From Candidatus Parcubacteria bacterium (GTDB lineage Bacteria > Patescibacteriota > Minisyncoccia > UBA6257 > HR35), in assembly GCA_026004495.1 (NCBI GenBank), contig BPJG01000001.1, positions 496,527 through 560,526 on the forward strand: a stretch of 64,000 nt of DNA, read 5' to 3'. Positions 5,818-47,923 of this stretch are shown piece by piece (position 1 is the stretch's first letter; the number at the start of each line of letters is the position of its first letter). The notes below the pieces were generated by a model that ran no database searches, was not told where the DNA came from, and saw nothing but the letters and a program-made list of their open reading frames with translations. The position numbers were made by a program, and so were the translations under genes.

Positions 5818-6189
5818 ATGGTAAAAAAACAAAAAAAAATAATAGAAAAAGAAATAATAGAATTAGATGTAGCCAATTTATCTTTGGGAAGATTAGCTGT
5901 TTTAATCTCATATTATTTACAAGGGAAACACAGAGTTGACTATAAGCCTTATATAGATTTTCCGGTATTTGTGAATTTAAAAAATTGGGATAAAATAAAA
6001 TTTACCGGTAATAAATTGGATAGTAAATATATATATAAACATACAGGTTATTGGGGTCATTTGAAAAAATATTCATTTAAAGAATTATGGGATAAAAAAC
6101 CTTTGTTTATTATAAGAAAAGCAATTAGCGGAATGTTGCCTAAAAATAAATTAAGAAAAAAAAGATTATTAAGGATTAATTTAGTTTAA
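5818..6189 (+). CDS. rplM: 50S ribosomal protein L13
   Basis: 123 aa. LGRLAV...LQGKH...YKHTGYWG matches L13. rpsI follows, as usual. Confidence 0.85.
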   Translation: MVKKQKKIIEKEIIELDVANLSLGRLAVLISYYLQGKHRVDYKPYIDFPVFVNLKNWDKIKFTGNKLDSKYIYKHTGYWGHLKKYSFKELWDKKPLFIIRKAISGMLPKNKLRKKRLLRINLV

Positions 6190-39452: not shown

Positions 39453-40487
39453 TTAAATTGGATGAAGGGGAATAAAATCTAAACCTGTATTTTCTGGTAA
39501 ATCTAAAATTATATTCATACATTGAATAGCTTGACCTGCTGTTCCCTTTACTAAATTGTCGATAGCGCTTAGGATAACTATTCTTTGTGTTTCTTCATTT
39601 ATTTCAAAGCCAATATCACAATAATTAGTTCCTAAAATAATTTTAGGTTCGGGTAATCTATATAATCCTTCTTTTTGTTTAATTATTCTAATGAAGGATT
39701 CATTTTTATAATATTTTAAGTAAATTTGCCATAAATCCTTTTCAGTTATTTTTTTATTAATTTCTAAAATATGAATAGTTGATAAAATGCCTCTTACTAA
39801 TTCAATAGCTGTAGCTGTTATTTCAACATCGATATTTAAAAAATCCTTTATTTCTGCCTCATGTCGATGATTAACAACTTTATATGTTCTGACAACATTA
39901 TTTCTTTCAGGGTGATGACTAGATAAAGATGGTTTTGAACCTCCCGCAGAGCTACCTATTTTAACATCAGCAATAATTTTAGTATTTTTATTTATTAATC
40001 CTTCTTTTACAAGGGGATAAAGTGGTAAGATTAGAGAGATTGCCTCACAACCTGGACAAGATAAATAATTTGATCTTTTAATCTCATTTCTATTAATTTC
40101 AGGTACAGCATAAATAAATTTTTTTAACCAATCTTCGGCTAAATGATTTTCTTGATAATATTTTTTAAATAAATATAAATTTTTCATCCTAAAATCAGAC
40201 CCTAAATCAATAATGTATTTAGCTAATTTACTAATTTTATTTATATATTTCATTGATTCTAGATTTGGTAAAGCAACAAAAATAATATCGCATTCTTTTA
40301 GTTCATCAAGGCTACAAAAATTTTTTTTAATTTTACCTCTGAGATTAGGATGAACAATTGTAATATCTTTACCAATATAATTTTTACTTGTTATTTGATT
40401 AATTTCTACATAAGGATGATTAATTAATAATCTTAAAAGTTCTCCCCCGGCATAACCAGAGCCACCTATTATACTTACTTTAATCAT
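39453..40487 (-). CDS. argC: N-acetyl-gamma-glutamyl-phosphate / LysW-gamma-aminoadipyl-phosphate reductase
   Basis: 344 aa. VSIIGGSGYAGGELLRLL Rossmann motif and an active-site Cys region LSCPGCEA. Confidence 0.8.
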   Translation of the reverse strand: MIKVSIIGGSGYAGGELLRLLINHPYVEINQITSKNYIGKDITIVHPNLRGKIKKNFCSLDELKECDIIFVALPNLESMKYINKISKLAKYIIDLGSDFRMKNLYLFKKYYQENHLAEDWLKKFIYAVPEINRNEIKRSNYLSCPGCEAISLILPLYPLVKEGLINKNTKIIADVKIGSSAGGSKPSLSSHHPERNNVVRTYKVVNHRHEAEIKDFLNIDVEITATAIELVRGILSTIHILEINKKITEKDLWQIYLKYYKNESFIRIIKQKEGLYRLPEPKIILGTNYCDIGFEINEETQRIVILSAIDNLVKGTAGQAIQCMNIILDLPENTGLDFIPLHPI

Positions 40488-41334
40488 TGTTTAAATTTTG
40501 AAGACAAAATTTAATTATTTCATCTGAAATACTGATTCCAGTTGTTTTTTGTATATTTTTGAACTCAATTGTATGGTTTAATTCATTGATTAAATAACCA
40601 TTATTAAATTCAAAAATATCAACTCCATAAATGCCCAAGGGTAATTTTTGAATTAAATTCTCGCATAAATTTTCTAAATCTTTATCCATATTACATAATC
40701 TAATTTTTCCTCCTCGAGCAGTATTAGATATCCAGTGAAAGTTTTCGCGATAAACAGCACAAATTATTCTGTTACCTACAATAGTTACTCTAATATCACG
40801 ATTAGGTTTAGTGATGTATTTAGTAGTATAAAAAATATTATGATAAGGAGCAGAAAGATAGCGTTTATGTTCTAATATTCCTTCAAAAGCATCGCGATCA
40901 TTTATTTTAGCTAATAATCTACCCCATGAGCCATATATCGGTTTTAATACTAAAGGGTAATCATTTAAAATTTTAGTTACTTCATCGATTAATTCTTCAT
41001 TAAAAAATACTAAAAAAGGAATTGTTGGTAATTTGTTTTTGATCAGAAATAGAGAAGTTAGAAATTTATTGGAACAAATATGATTAACTTGTGAATTATT
41101 TATTACTTTAATACCGAATGTTTCAAAAAAATAAACTATTTGATCGCCAATGAAATTTGATAAACACCTATTCAAAATTAATTTATAGTTAAATTTAAAA
41201 TTATTAGGATCTAAAATTAATTTATCTGTAGAAATTAAATTTATTTCAAGATTTAAATTTTTAGCCGATTGAATTAATAATTTTTCGTCTTCTCTTAAAA
41301 TATTGTATATTAAAGAAATCATTATTGTCCCCAA
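40480..41334 (-). CDS. lysX: RimK-type ATP-grasp ligase of the LysX/ArgX family (ligates substrate to the LysW C-terminus)
   Basis: 284 aa ATP-grasp fold. The track start is TTG. An in-frame ATG at about 41320-41322 overlaps the LysW stop as TAATG. Confidence 0.65.
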   Translation of the reverse strand: MGTIMISLIYNILREDEKLLIQSAKNLNLEINLISTDKLILDPNNFKFNYKLILNRCLSNFIGDQIVYFFETFGIKVINNSQVNHICSNKFLTSLFLIKNKLPTIPFLVFFNEELIDEVTKILNDYPLVLKPIYGSWGRLLAKINDRDAFEGILEHKRYLSAPYHNIFYTTKYITKPNRDIRVTIVGNRIICAVYRENFHWISNTARGGKIRLCNMDKDLENLCENLIQKLPLGIYGVDIFEFNNGYLINELNHTIEFKNIQKTTGISISDEIIKFCLQNLNND

Positions 41335-41498
41335 TCTTCTTCAATATGAGGTGCTTCTTCTAAAGTAATATTATTACCTATTATATTTTTAACAACTAAT
41401 TTATTATTACAGCTTTCGCAATTTAATAATTCATTTTCTTCTAGTAAACTTTGAAAAGAAATTTGAGAACCACAAATTGGACATTCAGCTTGATTCAT
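41322..41498 (-). CDS. lysW: Amino-group carrier protein LysW (58 aa, zinc ribbon)
   Basis: Absent from the ORF track because it is shorter than 60 aa. Minus-strand translation reads MNQAECPICGSQISFQSLLEENELLNCESCNNKLVVKNIIGNNITLEEAPHIEEDWGQ. CxxC...CxxC zinc ribbon and the acidic EDWG tail of LysW. The terminal residue is Gln (CAA), not the canonical Glu. Confidence 0.7.
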   Translation of the reverse strand: MNQAECPICGSQISFQSLLEENELLNCESCNNKLVVKNIIGNNITLEEAPHIEEDWGQ

Positions 41499-41570
41499 TT
41501 TGGTAAATTAAAAAAATTAATTACGACATTTTTTATAAACTTTATAAACTGAGATAAATAAAATTATAAT

Positions 41571-42227
41571 TTATAATTTTTCAAAATCAATGGTTATTAA
41601 AGTATTTGAAGATAACTTTTGAAAATTAAAATTTAATATCTCTTCAGAGCAAATTAAAATTATTTCATTATCTTGGTATAATCTTAAACTAAAATAATCT
41701 TCATTTTGGCTAAAAATAGAAATTAAATTTAATTTTTTTAAATTTAAATCAATTAGAATAACATTCATTCCTATGATTAATTTAGTTTTCTTAACTATAA
41801 TTTGATAAAAATTTTCCCAATAATTATTAATATCTTTATTATGTAATTGCTTAATTAAATTAAATAATTTTTGAGAACCAATCTTGCCCGAAATATTTAT
41901 TTTTACACCTCTTAATAATCCATTAAAAATAAAAATTAAACTATCATCAAAAAAGGGTTGATTAAATTCAATTTCATTTTTACTATTATGAGCCGAGCGA
42001 CTATGAGCTATCAACAATTTGTCATCTAAAAAATTTTTAAATAAATATTTTTCTTCCCAAATAGGATTAATTGATTTATAAAATTGTTTAGTAGTAATGA
42101 TACCCCACCCATCTTTTTGGCGATCGCCATCAGGAGTTAAACTCCTTTCACAAATATTAGCAAAATTTTCTAAAAAATAACTAATATCAATTTTCTTTTT
42201 TGAAATAACAGTTAATAATCTACACAT
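41571..42227 (-). CDS. Class II (Ntn-type) glutamine amidotransferase-like protein, stand-alone
   Basis: 218 aa. It begins Met-Cys (MCRLLTV...), a candidate N-terminal nucleophile. DGWGI and IAHSRSAHNSKNEIEFNQPF resemble the RGxDxxG and HxRxATxG...NxQP motifs of GATase_2 domains. It is embedded in the lysZJ-W-XY operon. Confidence 0.45.
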   Translation of the reverse strand: MCRLLTVISKKKIDISYFLENFANICERSLTPDGDRQKDGWGIITTKQFYKSINPIWEEKYLFKNFLDDKLLIAHSRSAHNSKNEIEFNQPFFDDSLIFIFNGLLRGVKINISGKIGSQKLFNLIKQLHNKDINNYWENFYQIIVKKTKLIIGMNVILIDLNLKKLNLISIFSQNEDYFSLRLYQDNEIILICSEEILNFNFQKLSSNTLITIDFEKL

Positions 42228-43362
42228 TTTTTATAACTTCTTTAAATTTTTCGATAAAATAATCAATATCTTTCAAGCTAATAATATAAGGTGGTAGAAG
42301 GCGAATAACATTATCTCCAGCCGGTATCGTTAAAATAAAATTTTCTTGAAGTTTTTTAATTATTTCTGTTCTTTTATTATTTACTTCTATTCCAATCATT
42401 AATCCCTTTCCTCTTATATCTTTTAATAAAGGAGAATTAATTTCTTTTAATCTTTTTATTAAATAATCACCTTTTTCTTTTATTTTATTTAAAAAATCAT
42501 CATTTAATAATTCCGTGATTTTTAAAGCTACACTACAAGCCACTAAATTACCGCCAAAAGTTGAGGTATGAAAAAATTTAGGAAGACTTTTGGCTATTTC
42601 TTCTTTAACAATTACAGCACTTAGAGGAAAACCATTAGCAATACCCTTACCTAAGCAAATTATATCTGGAGATACTTCTTCCCATTGACTAGCTAAAAAT
42701 TTTCCTGTTCTTCCTAAACCTGTTTGAATTTCATCTATTATTAGAACAATTTTATTTTTTTGACATAATTTAGATAATTGCTCTAAATAACCAGTAGGTA
42801 GTAAATTTATACCTCCATCTCCTTGAATTGGTTCAATTATTATTACTCCTATTTGCTGATTAATATAACTTAATAATTCATCAAAATTTCCATAATCAAT
42901 AAAATCTACCTTAATTAAAATATCATTTAAATTTGTTTTGTATTTACTATTATAAGTTACCGAAAGTGAACCCAAGGTTTTACCGTGATAACTATTTTTC
43001 ATTGCAATAATTTTTGTTTTTTTAGAAAAATAAAGAGCAAATTTTAAAGCCGCATCTATTGCTTCAGCACCCGAATTCAAAAATAAAATTTTACCTTCAA
43101 TATTACATTTAGCTAATAATTTTTGAGCTAATTCATTTCTAATTGGATTGATAAAACTATTATGAAGATTAATTAGTTCATCTATTTGTTTATTGGCGAT
43201 TTTATTCAGTATATTATTTCGATAACCCAAAATATTAGCTCCATAATTTGACATCATATCTAAATATTTGTTACCATTTTGATCATATAAATAACATCCT
43301 TCACCTTTTATTATTTCTAGGCCTCGATTTAAATATAAATCAAGAAGATAATCTAGTTTCAT
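42220..43362 (-). CDS. argD: Acetylornithine/LysW-lysine-semialdehyde aminotransferase (class III PLP)
   Basis: 380 aa. Class-III aminotransferase with a PLP-Lys region around DIICLGKGIANGFP. Confidence 0.8.
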   Translation of the reverse strand: MKLDYLLDLYLNRGLEIIKGEGCYLYDQNGNKYLDMMSNYGANILGYRNNILNKIANKQIDELINLHNSFINPIRNELAQKLLAKCNIEGKILFLNSGAEAIDAALKFALYFSKKTKIIAMKNSYHGKTLGSLSVTYNSKYKTNLNDILIKVDFIDYGNFDELLSYINQQIGVIIIEPIQGDGGINLLPTGYLEQLSKLCQKNKIVLIIDEIQTGLGRTGKFLASQWEEVSPDIICLGKGIANGFPLSAVIVKEEIAKSLPKFFHTSTFGGNLVACSVALKITELLNDDFLNKIKEKGDYLIKRLKEINSPLLKDIRGKGLMIGIEVNNKRTEIIKKLQENFILTIPAGDNVIRLLPPYIISLKDIDYFIEKFKEVIKNV

Positions 43363-44174
43363 TTATTAATAAAAGTTCCAATTTTTTTATTTAAGGCATC
43401 TTGAATGCAATTTTTTATCCTTCCATCGGTAATAAAAATTTCTGAATCAAAATTAGTTAAAATGTTTTTGATATTTAATAATTTTTTTTTGAAACCATAG
43501 GTTAAATTTTGATTTAAAAGTTTATCAATATCATTAAGATTAAAATTTCGAATAAGACTATTTTCGTCATTAATATTTTTTAAAATACCTGGCTTATCAA
43601 TTACCATTATAATTTTAGTTGGCTTATATTCTTTAGCTAAAAAATAAATTAATTGCTCATTATCAACATTGACTATTTCTCCTTCAGCTGTAATAACTGG
43701 CTGACTAATTACTAAAATAAACTTATTTTCTAGTAGCATATCAATAAGATTTTTATTTATTTCTATAACTTTTCCAGTTAAATTATTGTCAATCAATTTT
43801 ATTTTGCCATCAATTTTAGCAGTTAAAAATTTTTTTCTTTTAGCTATAATTAATTCACCATCAATTCCACTCAAACTAATAGCATTAATTTTTCTTTTTA
43901 TCAACAAACTAACGAATTTTTTACTAACTAAACCTGCATAGCTCATTAAAATTAAATCGATAATATTATTATCAGTAAAAACACTTTTATAACCACTTTC
44001 TGATTCAATAATTCTAATTTGAATATTTAATTTTTGAGCTAATTCATTTCTATACTGATTAGCACCGATAATTATTATAATTTTTTCATCACTATTTTTT
44101 ATCATATAACTAATATCATCGGCTAAGTATTCTAAATTTATATTTTTACTTCCTCCTATTTTTATTATTAACAT
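43359..44174 (-). CDS. argB: Acetylglutamate / LysW-aminoadipate kinase (amino-acid kinase family)
   Basis: 271 aa. MLIIKIGGS... follows the AAK fold pattern. 4-nt overlap with argD. Confidence 0.7.
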   Translation of the reverse strand: MLIIKIGGSKNINLEYLADDISYMIKNSDEKIIIIIGANQYRNELAQKLNIQIRIIESESGYKSVFTDNNIIDLILMSYAGLVSKKFVSLLIKRKINAISLSGIDGELIIAKRKKFLTAKIDGKIKLIDNNLTGKVIEINKNLIDMLLENKFILVISQPVITAEGEIVNVDNEQLIYFLAKEYKPTKIIMVIDKPGILKNINDENSLIRNFNLNDIDKLLNQNLTYGFKKKLLNIKNILTNFDSEIFITDGRIKNCIQDALNKKIGTFINK

Positions 44175-45932: not shown

Positions 45933-46880
45933 TTATAACAATTTTGAAAATAAATTAAATGAGTTTTTAAATAAAACATACGAAGGAACATTAAACTTCC
46001 TTAGACTTTCACTAAATTCTAAATAATTCTTAATTCCTTCATAATTTTCATTAAATTTAAATCCAAAAAAATCAGTTCCTATTGCTAAATTGTTTTTGAA
46101 TTCATTTTTTAAATGCCTAAAAGTTTTTAGCCAATTTATAAAATTAATTTCTCCATTAATATTTATTGAATAAGGCAGGCAAGTTAATCCAATTAACCCT
46201 CCTATGTCTTTTAATAATTTTAGGTTTTTTATATCCAAGTTTTGTTCAAAGTCGATTAATTCTTTAAATCCATTATGAGAGAAGATAACAGGCTTTTTAT
46301 AAATTTTTAAAATATCTCTGAATGTGTTTATAGATGAGTGAGCTAAATCTAATACAATTGGTAGTTTCTCTAATATTTTTATTAATTGCTTGCCTTCTTT
46401 TGTTAAACCCTTATTAGTTGTATTTTTTAATGAAGCAGAAAATTTTGTGTCTTCATTCCAATTTAATCCGAATACCCTTATACCTTTTTTATATAGTGAA
46501 TATATATCACTAATATTATTTAAAAAATTTAATCCTTCTGTACCCAAGATTAATCCTATATTTTTGGATTGTAAAACATCCTTTAAATCTCTTTTGTTAT
46601 ATATGATTTTAAATATCTTAAATCTATTTATCCATTTTAAGAATCTCTCTAATCTTTCCATAAATTGAGTAATATTTATAGGAACCCATTTATTATTTAT
46701 AAATTCAAAAGGAAAAATATTTACGACAGCAAATTTTAACCCTGATTTTAAAAATTGTGGTATATCACCATGCCTTTTTAATTCTAATATACTGAGATTT
46801 TTATATTTCATATTCAAAAATTTAGGGAACCTAAGATAAACTTCTATATCAAGATGTAAATCAAATATTACATTTTTCAT
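45933..46880 (-). CDS. Peptidase M19 (membrane/renal dipeptidase family)-like metallohydrolase
   Basis: 315 aa. N-terminal IFDLHLDI resembles the DGHND metal site. VIFSHNGFKELIDFEQNLDIKNLKLLKDIGGLIGLTC matches the M19 pattern SHS...RN..D..L....GG.IG. Confidence 0.45.
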   Translation of the reverse strand: MKNVIFDLHLDIEVYLRFPKFLNMKYKNLSILELKRHGDIPQFLKSGLKFAVVNIFPFEFINNKWVPINITQFMERLERFLKWINRFKIFKIIYNKRDLKDVLQSKNIGLILGTEGLNFLNNISDIYSLYKKGIRVFGLNWNEDTKFSASLKNTTNKGLTKEGKQLIKILEKLPIVLDLAHSSINTFRDILKIYKKPVIFSHNGFKELIDFEQNLDIKNLKLLKDIGGLIGLTCLPYSININGEINFINWLKTFRHLKNEFKNNLAIGTDFFGFKFNENYEGIKNYLEFSESLRKFNVPSYVLFKNSFNLFSKLL

Positions 46881-47923
46881 GGAATTAATTTTAACTCTCT
46901 TTGAATATTTTCAAATTTTTCTCTTATCTCTACTCTAAGATTATGAAAATGAATACTTTCATTAACTTCTACCTCTAATTCTATAAGACTTTTAGGATCT
47001 AATTTCTTACCTAAGCTTTCTACTGATTCTTTTACAATTTCTCTTGCTACATCTTCACAAAATTGTTCTTTTATCAAAGCTTCTTTAATAAAATCAAACT
47101 CATCTTTACCGCTTAATAATTCTCTAGTAATTAAAACACTCTTATTCAAAATTTTATAAATTTCATTATGAGTTATATTATTTTTTAAATCTTCAATTAT
47201 TAACTTTGCCGTACCTAAATTAGTATGAGATCCAAAATTTAATGGATTAATTACTTTATAAATATCCTTATCAGATAAACCTAAACTTTTTAAATAATGA
47301 TAAGCTTCTCTTATACTCCATCTTTGAGGACAAGGGCAAGCATTCATAAATGGAACATCCATCCCTAATTTGTATCTAATTTCATCTTTATTTAAAAAAC
47401 CAATGGCTATAATTTTTATGTTTTCATGAGCTAATCTACCGGATGAATTTTTATCAATTAACTTTTCATAATTAAATACAATCTTTATAATACCAGTTTC
47501 TCTATTTTGTAATTCTGCTGCATATTTAATAAGATTTTTTAAATATTCTTTTAAATTAGTTCTACTAAACTGATATTTTTGCATAGCTTTTTCTATTCGA
47601 GACATATGTAAACCTCTCTGATTTTCTGGCAAATCAAAGAATATTTCAATATCTACTTCTGGTTCGATTATTTTATTTTTTTCAAAAATATCTTCAATTT
47701 GTATTTTATGTTTTCTGTTTGTTACTCCTACTTTTGGAAGTGGAAATAAAATTTTTGGAGTAGAAGCTGGTATATCTACAAAATTTTTTTCATCTATATT
47801 TTCAAAATTTTTTATACCTTTGACCTCTAATAGTGGTTGAAATTGGAATGTTGATACTACCTTTTGATTTTTTAAACTTCGAACTTTCAACGATTTTAAT
47901 GAACCAAAAATTTTGTTTATCAT
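46877..47923 (-). CDS. Possible GTP cyclohydrolase FolE2/MptA-family (T-fold) protein; uncertain
   Basis: 348 aa. GLHMSRIEK resembles the G-T-H-M-S-R-F segment I recall from FolE2/MptA, and there is a C-terminal CPCPQ Cys pair. The recollection is not firm. Overlaps the M19 gene by 4 nt. Confidence 0.3.
   Translation of the reverse strand: MINKIFGSLKSLKVRSLKNQKVVSTFQFQPLLEVKGIKNFENIDEKNFVDIPASTPKILFPLPKVGVTNRKHKIQIEDIFEKNKIIEPEVDIEIFFDLPENQRGLHMSRIEKAMQKYQFSRTNLKEYLKNLIKYAAELQNRETGIIKIVFNYEKLIDKNSSGRLAHENIKIIAIGFLNKDEIRYKLGMDVPFMNACPCPQRWSIREAYHYLKSLGLSDKDIYKVINPLNFGSHTNLGTAKLIIEDLKNNITHNEIYKILNKSVLITRELLSGKDEFDFIKEALIKEQFCEDVAREIVKESVESLGKKLDPKSLIELEVEVNESIHFHNLRVEIREKFENIQRELKLIP

What the first reader, a model, noticed from the sequence alone, without database searches (positions are those of the whole stretch)
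41322..42227. LysW carrier protein ends in Gln instead of Glu and is adjacent to an Ntn-type class II amidotransferase-like gene; no LysK in the cluster
The cluster lysZ(argB)-lysJ(argD)-[GATase-like]-lysW-lysX-lysY(argC) is the amino-group-carrier-protein pathway used for lysine, arginine or ornithine synthesis in Thermus and archaea and for non-proteinogenic amino acids in actinomycetes. Canonical LysW ends ...EDWGE, and the substrate is ligated to the gamma-carboxyl of the terminal Glu. Here the 58-aa LysW reads ...EEDWGQ, with CAA then a TAA that overlaps the lysX ATG. A C-terminal Gln could not be ligated unless deamidated. A 218-aa protein starting Met-Cys, with HxRxA..G...NQP-type class II amidotransferase motifs, is inserted in the operon. 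The usual M20 deacylase LysK is missing. Hypothesis: the Ntn hydrolase either matures LysW by deamidating the terminal Gln to Glu, or replaces LysK in releasing the product from the gamma-glutamyl isopeptide, analogous to EgtC-type gamma-glutamyl amidohydrolases. Either would be a new variant of the AmCP pathway.
Basis: partly seen in the sequence, partly recalled or inferred. Interest (0 to 1): 0.7.

Follow-up and report, generated by a model that had tools for sequence, protein, structure and literature searches.

The report
Gln-ended LysW with EgtC-like hydrolase
In this tiny bacterium and hundreds of other microbes, the carrier-protein pathway that makes lysine has apparently swapped its usual last enzyme for an unrelated cysteine hydrolase, and only these versions let the carrier protein end in glutamine instead of the normally essential glutamate.

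Summary
The window (Candidatus Parcubacteria MAG KatS3mg094) carries lysZ-lysJ-[218-aa Met-Cys protein]-lysW-lysX-lysY, and LysW ends EEDWGQ (CAA TAA). An independent assembly and a second lineage 86% identical in LysW reproduce the CAA.

The 218-aa protein has a class-II Ntn glutaminase fold (AF2 pLDDT 96.7). Its closest solved structure is EgtC. It belongs to a compact family of about 156 clusters at 50% identity.

In all 80 species genomes retrieved, and in every other informative locus, this gene sits inside a LysW cluster. That is often a complete alpha-aminoadipate lysine operon, with the gene where Pyrococcus has the M20 hydrolase LysK. Only one M20 gene was found in 2 Mb of such loci.

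Gln-terminal LysW is not a one-off:
- More than 116 examples occur in metagenomes.
- At least 16 independent E/Q switches are inferred.
- It is found in 8 of 59 genomes carrying this cluster type.
- It is absent from the 120 best relatives of Thermus/Thermococcus/Sulfolobus LysW.
- All 36 Q-terminal loci that show the whole cluster carry the Ntn gene.

Best reading: one gamma-glutamyl-amide hydrolase releases lysine or ornithine from LysW, replacing LysK, and also deamidates LysW-Gln. This parallels Pup and Dop. No biochemistry was done.

The parts
43359..44174 (-). lysZ, the [LysW]-aminoadipate/glutamate kinase
   Evidence: Pfam AA_kinase 80.7 bits. NCBIfam [LysW]-aminoadipate kinase NF010659 200.9 bits.
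42220..43362 (-). lysJ, the [LysW]-semialdehyde aminotransferase (ArgD-like)
   Evidence: Pfam Aminotran_3 349.5 bits. NCBIfam argD and LysJ models also match.
41571..42227 (-). 218-aa EgtC-like class-II Ntn amidohydrolase. Proposed LysW gamma-glutamyl-amide hydrolase that replaces LysK and also deamidates LysW-Gln.
   Evidence: Starts Met-Cys-Arg. AF2 pLDDT 96.7. Foldseek top hits are EgtC 4zfl/4zfj (TM 0.72, E 4e-11), then GlmS and PurF glutaminase domains. The family profile hits 3mdn and EgtC. The gene lies inside LysW clusters in all 80 genome loci.
41322..41498 (-). lysW, the 58-aa amino-group carrier protein ending EEDWGQ
   Evidence: Pfam Zn_ribbon_LysW 37.3 bits. NCBIfam LysW/ArgW 46.3 bits. 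Sequence read.
41325..41327 (-). CAA codon for the C-terminal Gln58 of LysW (canonical LysW has Glu here)
   Evidence: The codon is reproduced in the Logan assembly and in a second lineage (L011). The sister genome L012 has GAA.
40480..41322 (-). lysX, the ATP-grasp ligase that attaches the substrate to the LysW C-terminal gamma-carboxylate. Its ATG overlaps the lysW TAA by one base.
   Evidence: Pfam LysX_preATP_grasp plus RimK. NCBIfam LysX_arch 256 bits. The start was fixed by alignment with L011 and L012.
39453..40487 (-). lysY/argC, the [LysW]-aminoadipyl/glutamyl-phosphate reductase
   Evidence: NCBIfam argC 375.5 bits. Pfam Semialdhyde_dh domains.

Best explanation
The 218-aa protein belongs to a distinct family of stand-alone class-II N-terminal-nucleophile amidohydrolases (EgtC-like fold). 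Within one class of LysW/AmCP clusters it takes the place of the M20 metallohydrolase LysK.

Proposed mechanism (inferred, not shown):
1. Met1 is removed, exposing Cys2 as the nucleophile.
2. Cys2 attacks the gamma-amide of the C-terminal residue of LysW, whose free alpha-carboxylate is held by Arg77.
3. A LysW-gamma-glutamyl thioester forms and the leaving group departs.
4. Water regenerates LysW-Glu.

When the leaving group is lysine or ornithine, this is the last step of the pathway (product release). When it is ammonia, the same chemistry converts a genetically encoded LysW-Gln into the ligation-competent LysW-Glu.

Because each new LysW-Gln molecule needs only one such turnover, a Glu-to-Gln change at the LysW terminus is tolerated only in lineages that use this enzyme. 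That would explain why the window's LysW can end in Gln.

The logic matches Pup and Dop in actinobacteria. There, one enzyme both deamidates PupQ to PupE and hydrolyses the gamma-glutamyl isopeptide.
For: Shown here:
1. Fold and catalytic residues.
- The AF2 model has pLDDT 96.7.
- The best PDB matches are EgtC (TM 0.72), then GlmS and PurF glutaminase domains.
- The family profile hits 3mdn (4.7e-7) and EgtC (8.8e-5).
- Met-Cys-Arg is present in 41 of 41 alignable members and in 116 of 117 distinct ORFs in loci.
- R77 aligns to GlmS R73 and N102-G103 to GlmS N98-G99; these residues are invariant in the family.
2. Synteny.
- 324 species genomes encode a relative.
- In all 80 loci fetched the gene abuts lysY, lysZ or lysJ. 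The taxa include Parcubacteria, Microgenomates, Ignavibacteriota (among them cultured Melioribacter roseus and Rosettibacter primus), Desulfobacterota, SAR324, Acidobacteriota and Woesearchaeota.
3. The LysK slot.
- P. furiosus has HCS-HACN-W-X-Y-Z-J-LysK(M20) and M. sedula has ...W-X-J-LysK.
- CPR and Woesearchaeota loci have W-X-Y-HCS-HACN-HICDH-Z-J-[this gene], or Y-[this gene]-Z-J.
- A homocitrate synthase gene adjoins the cluster in 61 loci.
4. LysK is absent locally.
- LysK and DapE probes find one M20 ORF in 2.03 Mb (213 loci plus the window).
- The same probes readily find LysK in three control clusters.
5. The Glu/Gln pattern.
- 8 of 59 species genomes with this cluster type have Gln-terminal LysW.
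- A pattern scan of metagenomes, blind to cluster type, gave more than 120 matches, 116 of them true Gln-terminal LysW. All 36 that show lysZ and lysJ carry the Ntn gene, and none carries an M20 gene in the cluster.
- At least 16 E/Q changes are inferred on a LysX+LysY+GAT tree, including a clade with Gln fixed.
- None of the 120 best relatives of Thermus/Thermococcus/Sulfolobus LysW ends in Gln.

From established knowledge:
- LysX needs a carboxylate to form an acyl phosphate.
- LysK is an ArgE-type M20 hydrolase (PMC12998189).
- EgtC hydrolyses a gamma-glutamyl amide.
- Dop both deamidates PupQ and depupylates (PMC8599861).
Against: - No biochemical data exist for any member of the family.
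- Genome-wide absence of a LysK/ArgE orthologue could not be tested. Only 64 kb of the 634-kb contig, and at most 10 kb either side elsewhere, were visible. M20 genes are common and LysK is unlinked in some organisms; the Anaerolineales locus L223, for example, has neither gene in its cluster.
- The window protein itself is below Pfam's GATase_4 cut-off.
- One locus (L077) has an M20 gene 3.3 kb from GAT-lysZ-lysJ.
- A few Gln-terminal LysW genes are orphans (L111, L181), so their partner genes are unknown.
- The control set of 120 LysW proteins is taxonomically narrow, and at least one member (L222) is itself of the Ntn type.
- The hhalign match to GlmS is short and has low probability. The suggestion that the Asp binding the glutamine alpha-amino group is replaced by G117-[S/A]118 rests on motif position only.
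Confidence: 0.68

Rival explanations
1. The enzyme is a dedicated maturase. It exists only to deamidate LysW-Gln to LysW-Glu, and product release is done by an unlinked LysK elsewhere in the genome.
For: - The window LysW does end in Gln, and glutaminase chemistry fits.
- All 36 fully visible Gln-terminal clusters carry the gene.
Against: - 51 of 59 species genomes with the gene have an ordinary Glu-terminal LysW that needs no maturation. The gene is nevertheless conserved there with invariant catalytic residues.
- The gene occupies the LysK position in otherwise complete operons.
Confidence: 0.05
2. The enzyme is an editing or rescue hydrolase. It removes wrongly ligated amino acids or dead-end adducts from LysW, and the true release enzyme is an unlinked M20 hydrolase.
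For: - The synteny and fold evidence is the same as for the best explanation.
- Some LysW clusters keep LysK elsewhere in the genome, as Thermus does (background knowledge). Locus L223 has no hydrolase in its cluster.
Against: - It does not explain why M20 genes are missing from about 116 such clusters yet are clustered in the canonical ones.
- It would still imply activity on the LysW gamma-amide, so it differs only in physiological role.
Confidence: 0.1
3. The enzyme is an ordinary free-glutamine glutaminase or the amidotransferase subunit of an unidentified synthase. It supplies glutamate or ammonia to the pathway. The Gln-terminal LysW is then either non-functional (pathway decay) or repaired by another enzyme.
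For: - It has a class-II GATase fold with the Cys, Arg and Asn-Gly catalytic set.
- Databases annotate these proteins as glutamine amidotransferases.
Against: - The protein is stand-alone at about 215 aa, with no synthase domain or conserved partner other than the lys genes.
- LysJ already supplies the amino group.
- All other genes of the window cluster are intact.
- Gln is fixed across a whole clade of intact clusters and has arisen at least 16 times, which does not fit decay.
- The position that binds the glutamine alpha-amino group in GlmS-type enzymes appears altered (inference).
Confidence: 0.08
4. The enzyme acts as a gamma-glutamyl transpeptidase. Its thioester intermediate passes LysW directly to the alpha-amine of the next aminoadipate or glutamate. 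This recycles LysW without ATP, and lets LysW-Gln be loaded the first time without LysX.
For: - Ntn thioester chemistry allows aminolysis as well as hydrolysis (background knowledge on gamma-glutamyl transpeptidases).
- It would give Gln-terminal LysW a positive role, which fits its fixation in a clade.
Against: - lysX is retained, full length, in every Gln-type and Glu-type cluster seen.
- There is no direct evidence for this mode.
Confidence: 0.07
5. The terminal Gln is a sequencing or assembly error, with GAA misread as CAA.
For: A single-base difference separates the two codons.
Against: - An independent assembler gives an identical sequence.
- The same codon occurs in a second lineage from another sample.
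- More than 116 further Gln-terminal LysW genes are found elsewhere.
Confidence: 0.01

Closest known systems
LysK, the [LysW]-lysine/ornithine hydrolase (M20 metallopeptidase, ArgE/DapE family; PDB 5xoy)
   Same: It has the same proposed substrate bond, the gamma-glutamyl amide between the LysW C-terminal residue and the alpha-amine of lysine or ornithine. It holds the same place at the end of the pathway and the same operon slot, after lysJ in P. furiosus, M. sedula and L224.
   Different: There is no homology between the two. LysK is a metal-dependent M20 fold, whereas this protein is a metal-free Cys Ntn hydrolase. LysK-type LysW relatives sampled here never end in Gln (0 of 120).
EgtC, the ergothioneine-pathway gamma-glutamyl amidohydrolase (PDB 4zfj, 4zfk, 4zfl; TIGR03442)
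   Same: It is the closest solved structure (Foldseek E 4e-11, TM 0.72). Both are stand-alone class-II Ntn hydrolases of about 220-230 aa with a Cys2 nucleophile. Both hydrolyse, or are proposed to hydrolyse, a gamma-glutamyl amide without passing ammonia to a synthase.
   Different: Sequence identity is about 14%. The score against the EgtC model is 24.7 bits against a cut-off of 218.65. The genomic context is lys genes, not egtA-E. The proposed substrate is a protein C-terminus with an acylated alpha-amine, not a free gamma-glutamyl compound.
Pup, Dop and PafA in Actinobacteria
   Same: [quoted passage not shown] In both, the terminal residue is encoded as Gln in some species and Glu in others. 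Dop both deamidates PupQ and cleaves the gamma-glutamyl isopeptide (PMC8599861). The pattern found here is the same: E/Q variation occurs only where the amidohydrolase is present.
   Different: The proteins are unrelated: Dop and PafA are glutamine-synthetase-like, and Pup is disordered rather than a zinc ribbon. Pup tags proteins for degradation, whereas LysW carries a biosynthetic intermediate. The parallel is by analogy only.
Canonical LysW/ArgW/AmCP pathways (Thermus, Sulfolobus, Thermococcus, haloarchaea, Streptomyces)
   Same: They share the carrier (zinc ribbon plus acidic EDWG tail), LysX, LysZ, LysY and LysJ. The cluster often includes homocitrate synthase, homoaconitase and homoisocitrate dehydrogenase.
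   Different: In this variant the release enzyme is replaced, and the carrier's reactive terminal residue may be encoded as Gln.

Membership tests
LysW / amino-group carrier protein | Zinc-ribbon globular domain (CxxC...CxxC) matching the LysW model | tested here: met
   PF21344 scores 37.3 bits against a cut-off of 27. The sequence carries C6xxC9...C27xxC30. The NCBIfam LysW models match, but below their trusted cut-offs (46.3 against 75; 37 against 53.2).
LysW / amino-group carrier protein | Acidic C-terminal tail ...E-D-W-G followed by a terminal Glu whose gamma-carboxylate is the attachment site | tested here: not met
   The tail EEDWG is present, but the terminal residue is Gln (CAA) rather than Glu. 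As encoded, the attachment carboxylate is missing.
LysW / amino-group carrier protein | Encoded next to lysX with lysY, lysZ and lysJ | tested here: met
   The same order is seen in L001, L012, L014 and L015.
Class-II (Ntn) glutamine amidotransferase superfamily (Pfam GATase_4 / GATase_6) | Cys immediately after the initiator Met, acting as the N-terminal nucleophile | tested here: met
   The protein starts MCRLL. Cys2 is present in 41 of 41 alignable family members and in 116 of 117 distinct ORFs.
Class-II (Ntn) glutamine amidotransferase superfamily (Pfam GATase_4 / GATase_6) | Four-layer alpha-beta-beta-alpha Ntn glutaminase fold | tested here: met
   The AF2 model has pLDDT 96.7. Foldseek gives probability 1.0 to EgtC, GlmS, PurF and AsnB glutaminase domains.
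Class-II (Ntn) glutamine amidotransferase superfamily (Pfam GATase_4 / GATase_6) | Arg that binds the substrate alpha-carboxylate, and the Asn-Gly oxyanion hole | tested here: met
   R77 and N102-G103 are invariant and align to GlmS R73 and N98-G99. The alignment is short and of low probability, so the equivalence is supported but not proven.
Class-II (Ntn) glutamine amidotransferase superfamily (Pfam GATase_4 / GATase_6) | Score above Pfam's gathering threshold | tested here: not met
   The window protein scores 17.6 bits against 23 for GATase_4. 27 of 46 family members match GATase_4 at E<=1e-3. The family is therefore a divergent branch without a model of its own.
EgtC (TIGR03442) | Equivalog-level sequence score and an ergothioneine (egtA-E) gene context | tested here: not met
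   The score is 24.7 bits against a cut-off of 218.65. The context is lys genes in every locus.
LysK / M20 [LysW]-lysine hydrolase | Homology to the M20 metallopeptidase family | tested here: not met
   There is no Pfam M20 match. The fold is Ntn. The protein is proposed as a functional analogue only.
LysK / M20 [LysW]-lysine hydrolase | Hydrolysis of LysW-gamma-Lys or LysW-gamma-Orn | not testable with these tools
   This needs an enzyme assay. The support here is operon position and the absence of M20 genes.
Pup/Dop-type 'Gln-encoded carrier plus deamidase/hydrolase' logic | The terminal residue varies between Gln and Glu among species, and one enzyme both deamidates and cleaves the gamma-glutamyl amide | tested here: inconclusive
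   E/Q variation and its restriction to clusters with the Ntn gene are shown. Dual activity of the enzyme is inferred, not shown. There is no homology to Dop.

The most novel reading that the evidence does not exclude
The Ntn enzyme is more than a LysK substitute. It makes LysW a genetically 'capped' pro-carrier whose activation depends on the release enzyme, as PupQ depends on Dop. It may also work as a gamma-glutamyl transpeptidase, passing the LysW thioester straight to the next aminoadipate or glutamate. Steady-state lysine synthesis would then bypass the ATP-dependent LysX step, and LysW-Gln would be loaded without ATP.
Probability: 0.1. Interest if true: 0.9.

Novelty: new variant of a known kind. 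Interest (0 to 1): 0.8.

Why it matters
The LysW/AmCP route is the textbook case of carrier-protein-mediated amino-acid synthesis. So far it has been described with a single release enzyme (LysK, of the ArgE/M20 type) and an invariant C-terminal Glu.

If this reading is right:
- A second, unrelated release enzyme exists. It is the one used by a broad set of little-studied lineages: CPR bacteria, DPANN archaea, Ignavibacteriota, Desulfobacterota and others. This would fill the 'missing last step' that makes automated reconstructions call lysine synthesis incomplete in these genomes.
- It assigns a function to a family now annotated only as 'class II glutamine amidotransferase' or 'hypothetical'.
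- It reveals a natural Glu/Gln polymorphism at a catalytic attachment site that is readable straight from genomes, and a second, independent instance of the Pup/Dop design.

The hypothesis is directly testable, because cultured carriers exist (Melioribacter roseus, Rosettibacter primus).

Tried and rejected
- **Sequencing error.** Rejected. The CAA is identical in the Logan assembly and is shared by a second lineage.
- **Peptidase_M19 at 45933-46880 as the LysK substitute.** Rejected. No M19 homologue accompanies any other cluster.
- **Membership of EgtC or YafJ.** Rejected on model scores and gene context.
- **A LysK just outside the finding.** No M20 ORF exists in the whole 64-kb window. The rest of the 634-kb contig could not be read.
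- **Literature searches.** LysW combined with amidotransferase, EgtC, Ntn, GATase or YafJ, and 'amino group carrier protein' combined with 'Ntn hydrolase', returned nothing relevant. Subscription-only papers are not covered.
- **Viral-contig scan for an unbiased E/Q baseline.** It gave only 4 loci and was not useful.
- **hhalign of the family against the GlmS glutaminase domain.** It aligned only the R...N-G core at low probability. No structural superposition was possible, so the claim that the Asp binding the alpha-amino group is replaced remains an inference.
- **AFDB Foldseek library.** Unavailable.
- **Exceptional Gln-terminal loci without the Ntn gene (L111, L120, L129, L181, L186, L210).** Inspected. 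They are orphans, LysW next to HCS and aconitase, or rearranged clusters. None shows a LysK-type cluster.
Full report
**1. What is in the window**

The window is 25% G+C. It is identical to part of a 634-kb contig of the MAG 'Candidatus Parcubacteria bacterium KatS3mg094'. On the minus strand lie these genes:
- lysZ, 43359-44174
- lysJ, 42220-43362
- a 218-aa ORF, 41571-42227
- lysW, 41322-41498
- lysX, 40480-41322
- lysY/argC, 39453-40487

LysW has 58 residues. It matches Pfam Zn_ribbon_LysW above threshold and ends ...APHIEEDWGQ. The codons are CAA then TAA, and the final A of TAA is the first base of the lysX ATG. The 218-aa protein begins Met-Cys-Arg.

No M20 peptidase is encoded anywhere in the 64 kb. 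This was tested by phmmer with P. furiosus and M. sedula LysK and with E. coli DapE.

**2. The Gln codon is real and inherited**

- The Logan assembly of run DRR290133 is identical to window 40256-42847.
- A different organism from an unrelated sample (ENA ERZ1669417, L011) has a LysW 86% identical that also ends EEDWGQ. It shows the same GGA CAA TAATG junction and the same flanking genes.
- The sister MAG KatS3mg095 (L012) and more distant Parcubacteria (L001, L014, L015) have GAA.

**3. What the 218-aa protein is**

Sequence models are weak for the window protein. GATase_4 scores 17.6 bits against a cut-off of 23, and the EgtC model scores 24.7 against 218.65. The family as a whole is clearer:
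- 131 homologues of 210-225 aa were found.
- A profile of 46 of them hits PDB 3mdn (a class-II GATase-domain protein) and EgtC.
- 27 of the 46 match GATase_4.
- An AF2 model built on that alignment has pLDDT 96.7.
- Its best structural matches are EgtC (TM 0.72, E 4e-11), followed by the glutaminase domains of GlmS, PurF and AsnB.

Family-invariant residues include Cys2, Gln37, G40-W-G42, H75, R77, S78, N89, P91, F101-N102-G103, G114, I116, G117, K120, N155, Y178 and S194. In hhalign, R77 aligns with GlmS Arg73 and N102-G103 with GlmS Asn98-Gly99.

In GlmS-type enzymes the motif [ST]-D-[ST]-E supplies the Asp that binds the free alpha-amino group of glutamine. This family has I-G117-[S/A]-[Q/E]-K120 at the start of the equivalent helix. 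I infer, from motif position only, that the pocket is adapted to a glutamyl residue whose alpha-amine is in a peptide bond.

An exhaustive search of 1.84 billion representatives gives 156 clusters at E<=1e-30. The family is compact, and neither Pfam nor NCBIfam has a model for it.

**4. The gene is a fixed part of one class of LysW clusters**

A scan of one genome per GTDB species found 324 genomes with a relative. In all 80 loci retrieved the gene directly adjoins lysY, lysZ or lysJ. The same holds for the metagenome contigs looked up individually. Three gene orders recur:
- Z-J-GAT-W-X-Y in Parcubacteria, including the window.
- W-X-Y-(HCS-HACN-HICDH)-Z-J-GAT in Microgenomates, Gottesmanbacteria, Levybacteria and Roizmanbacteria.
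- W-(HCS)-X-Y-GAT-Z-J in Ignavibacteriota, Desulfobacterota, SAR324, Calditrichia, KSB1, Acidobacteriota and Woesearchaeota.

The Ignavibacteriota include the cultured species Melioribacter roseus and Rosettibacter primus.

A homocitrate synthase gene adjoins the cluster in 61 loci. Several loci (L016, L017, L084, L092, L052, L055, L222) carry a complete alpha-aminoadipate operon. In those operons every step from 2-oxoglutarate to LysW-lysine has a gene, and the only candidate for the final hydrolysis is this protein.

**5. It sits where LysK sits, and LysK is not there**

Canonical clusters fetched as controls:
- P. furiosus: HCS-HACN-W-X-Y-Z-J-M20.
- M. sedula: Y-Z-lrp-W-X-J-M20.
- ENA contig L224: W-X-Y-Z-J-M20.

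I used these LysK proteins and DapE as probes against all ORFs of 213 loci plus the window, 2.03 Mb in total. They hit a single M20 ORF (L077, 3.3 kb from GAT-Z-J). The same probes detect the control LysKs, even the frameshifted one in L224. This is in-situ non-orthologous displacement at the level of the cluster. Whether LysK is absent genome-wide could not be tested.

**6. Gln-terminal LysW is widespread and tied to this gene**

- Among the species genomes with the gene, 8 of 59 LysW proteins end in Gln: L017, L020, L021, L032, L052 (a Woesearchaeote), L071, L078 (Melioribacteraceae) and L089 (Solibacteraceae).
- I scanned metagenome contigs for A-P-x3-E-D-W-G-Q-stop, a pattern blind to cluster type.
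- 116 of the 120 are genuine LysW genes and 4 are chance matches.
- 36 of the 116 loci extend far enough to show lysZ and lysJ, and all 36 carry the Ntn gene.
- The other 80 are cut off within about 3 kb, or have LysW detached from lysX. L111 and L181 are orphans, L129 has lysW-HCS-aconitase, and L210 is rearranged.
- No LysK-type cluster with a Gln-terminal LysW was seen.
- An NJ tree of concatenated LysX+LysY+GAT was built for 95 non-redundant clusters (53 Glu, 42 Gln). Parsimony on it needs at least 16 E/Q changes. A large sediment clade, 84-93% identical in these proteins, has Gln throughout.
- As a control, a profile of the three crystallised LysW proteins (Thermus, T. kodakarensis, S. 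tokodaii) found 1001 relatives. Of the best 120, 116 end in Glu and none in Gln.
- Comparing 8 of 59 with 0 of 116 gives a one-sided Fisher p of about 1e-4 (my arithmetic).

The control has limits. It is dominated by Thermaceae, Thermococcales and Sulfolobales, and it contains at least one Ntn-type cluster (L222).

**7. Mechanism proposed**

LysX must phosphorylate a carboxylate, so LysW-Gln as encoded cannot be loaded (established ATP-grasp chemistry). LysW-gamma-Lys is, chemically, a C-terminal glutamine whose amide nitrogen carries the product. Its alpha-carboxylate is free, as in the substrate of a glutaminase.

A Cys-Ntn glutaminase-type enzyme that accepts an acylated alpha-amine would hydrolyse both LysW-gamma-Lys/Orn (releasing the product) and LysW-Gln (releasing ammonia). 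Both reactions yield LysW-Glu. This single activity explains four observations:
- The gene is conserved with Glu-terminal LysW in most lineages.
- LysK is missing from these clusters.
- Glu-to-Gln changes at an otherwise invariant catalytic residue arise repeatedly and persist.
- They do so only where this gene is present.

The same design is established for Pup. PupQ in some actinobacteria and PupE in others are ligated through the C-terminal gamma-carboxylate, and Dop both deamidates PupQ and cleaves the isopeptide (PMC8599861).

Shown here: fold, catalytic residues, synteny, local absence of LysK, and the E/Q distribution. Inferred: the substrate, both activities, and the neutrality of Gln.

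**8. Rivals**

- A maturase-only role fails, because most carriers of the gene have Glu-terminal LysW.
- A free-glutamine glutaminase role does not explain the strict synteny, the missing step, or the E/Q pattern.
- An editing role with an unlinked LysK cannot be excluded without whole genomes.
- A transpeptidase mode is chemically possible, but lysX is always retained.
- Sequencing error is excluded.

**9. Comparison with what is known, and novelty**

The carrier, ligase, kinase, reductase and aminotransferase are ordinary members of the AmCP system described in Thermus, Sulfolobus and Thermococcus (PMC12998189). Two features are new: a release enzyme of a different superfamily, and a carrier that may be encoded in an amidated, unreactive form.

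Full-text searches of open-access papers and bioRxiv found no paper that links LysW or AmCP with a class-II amidotransferase, EgtC or an Ntn hydrolase. Subscription literature was not searchable.

I rate this a new variant of a known kind, of high interest to specialists, and directly testable in cultured organisms.

**10. For the window organism specifically**

The Parcubacteria clade carries only Z-J-GAT-W-X-Y, with no HCS, HACN or HICDH within 10 kb. It therefore remains open whether the cluster makes lysine from scavenged aminoadipate or ornithine from glutamate.

Noticed in passing
window 45933-46880 and 46877-47923 (minus strand): A Peptidase_M19 (membrane dipeptidase family) gene and a folE2-type GTP cyclohydrolase lie just upstream of the lys cluster, separated from it by a 543-aa ORF with no family match. 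No M19 homologue accompanies any of the roughly 200 related clusters, so it is not the missing hydrolase.
   Followed up: partly
L113 6781-6957 (-) and L212 6235-6411 (+): A second LysW paralogue sits in tandem with the Gln-terminal LysW. Its tail has degenerated (...AADPSAVEDWADS and ...VEDWANQ). It may be a decaying duplicate or a carrier with another role.
   Followed up: no
L214-L217 (IMG/VR viral contigs): Four viral-collection contigs encode Glu-terminal LysW-like zinc-ribbon proteins (...EDWGE) with no lysX, lysY, lysZ or lysJ nearby.
   Followed up: no
window 39453-44174; L001, L012, L014, L015: The Parcubacteria clade has only the second half of the pathway (Z-J-GAT-W-X-Y). No homocitrate synthase, homoaconitase or homoisocitrate dehydrogenase lies within 10 kb. 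The substrate (imported aminoadipate or glutamate) and the product (lysine or ornithine) are unresolved. Any amino-acid synthesis is unusual in such a reduced genome.
   Followed up: partly
L077 9965-12573 and 15894-17060: In a 6.97-Mb Desulfobacterales chromosome, GAT-lysZ-lysJ lie without lysW-X-Y nearby. The only M20 peptidase found in 2 Mb of loci lies 3.3 kb downstream. This genome may carry both types of hydrolase.
   Followed up: no
L111 about 6135-6167 (-) and L181 4239-4430 (-): These Gln-terminal LysW genes are orphans with no lys genes within several kb. Their neighbours are a lipase-like protein and an FAD oxidoreductase. Their partner genes and function are unknown.
   Followed up: partly
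L222 14073-15742; L187 4005-5707; L091 7189-8040 and 9083-9985: Some Ntn-type clusters carry two lysX paralogues. This resembles the LysX/ArgX pairs of Sulfolobales and suggests dual lysine and arginine use of one LysW.
   Followed up: no
L223 2601-8722: An Anaerolineales cluster (W-X-Y-Z-J-HCS) has neither an M20 gene nor the Ntn gene in the cluster. The release enzyme can evidently be unlinked in some lineages.
   Followed up: no
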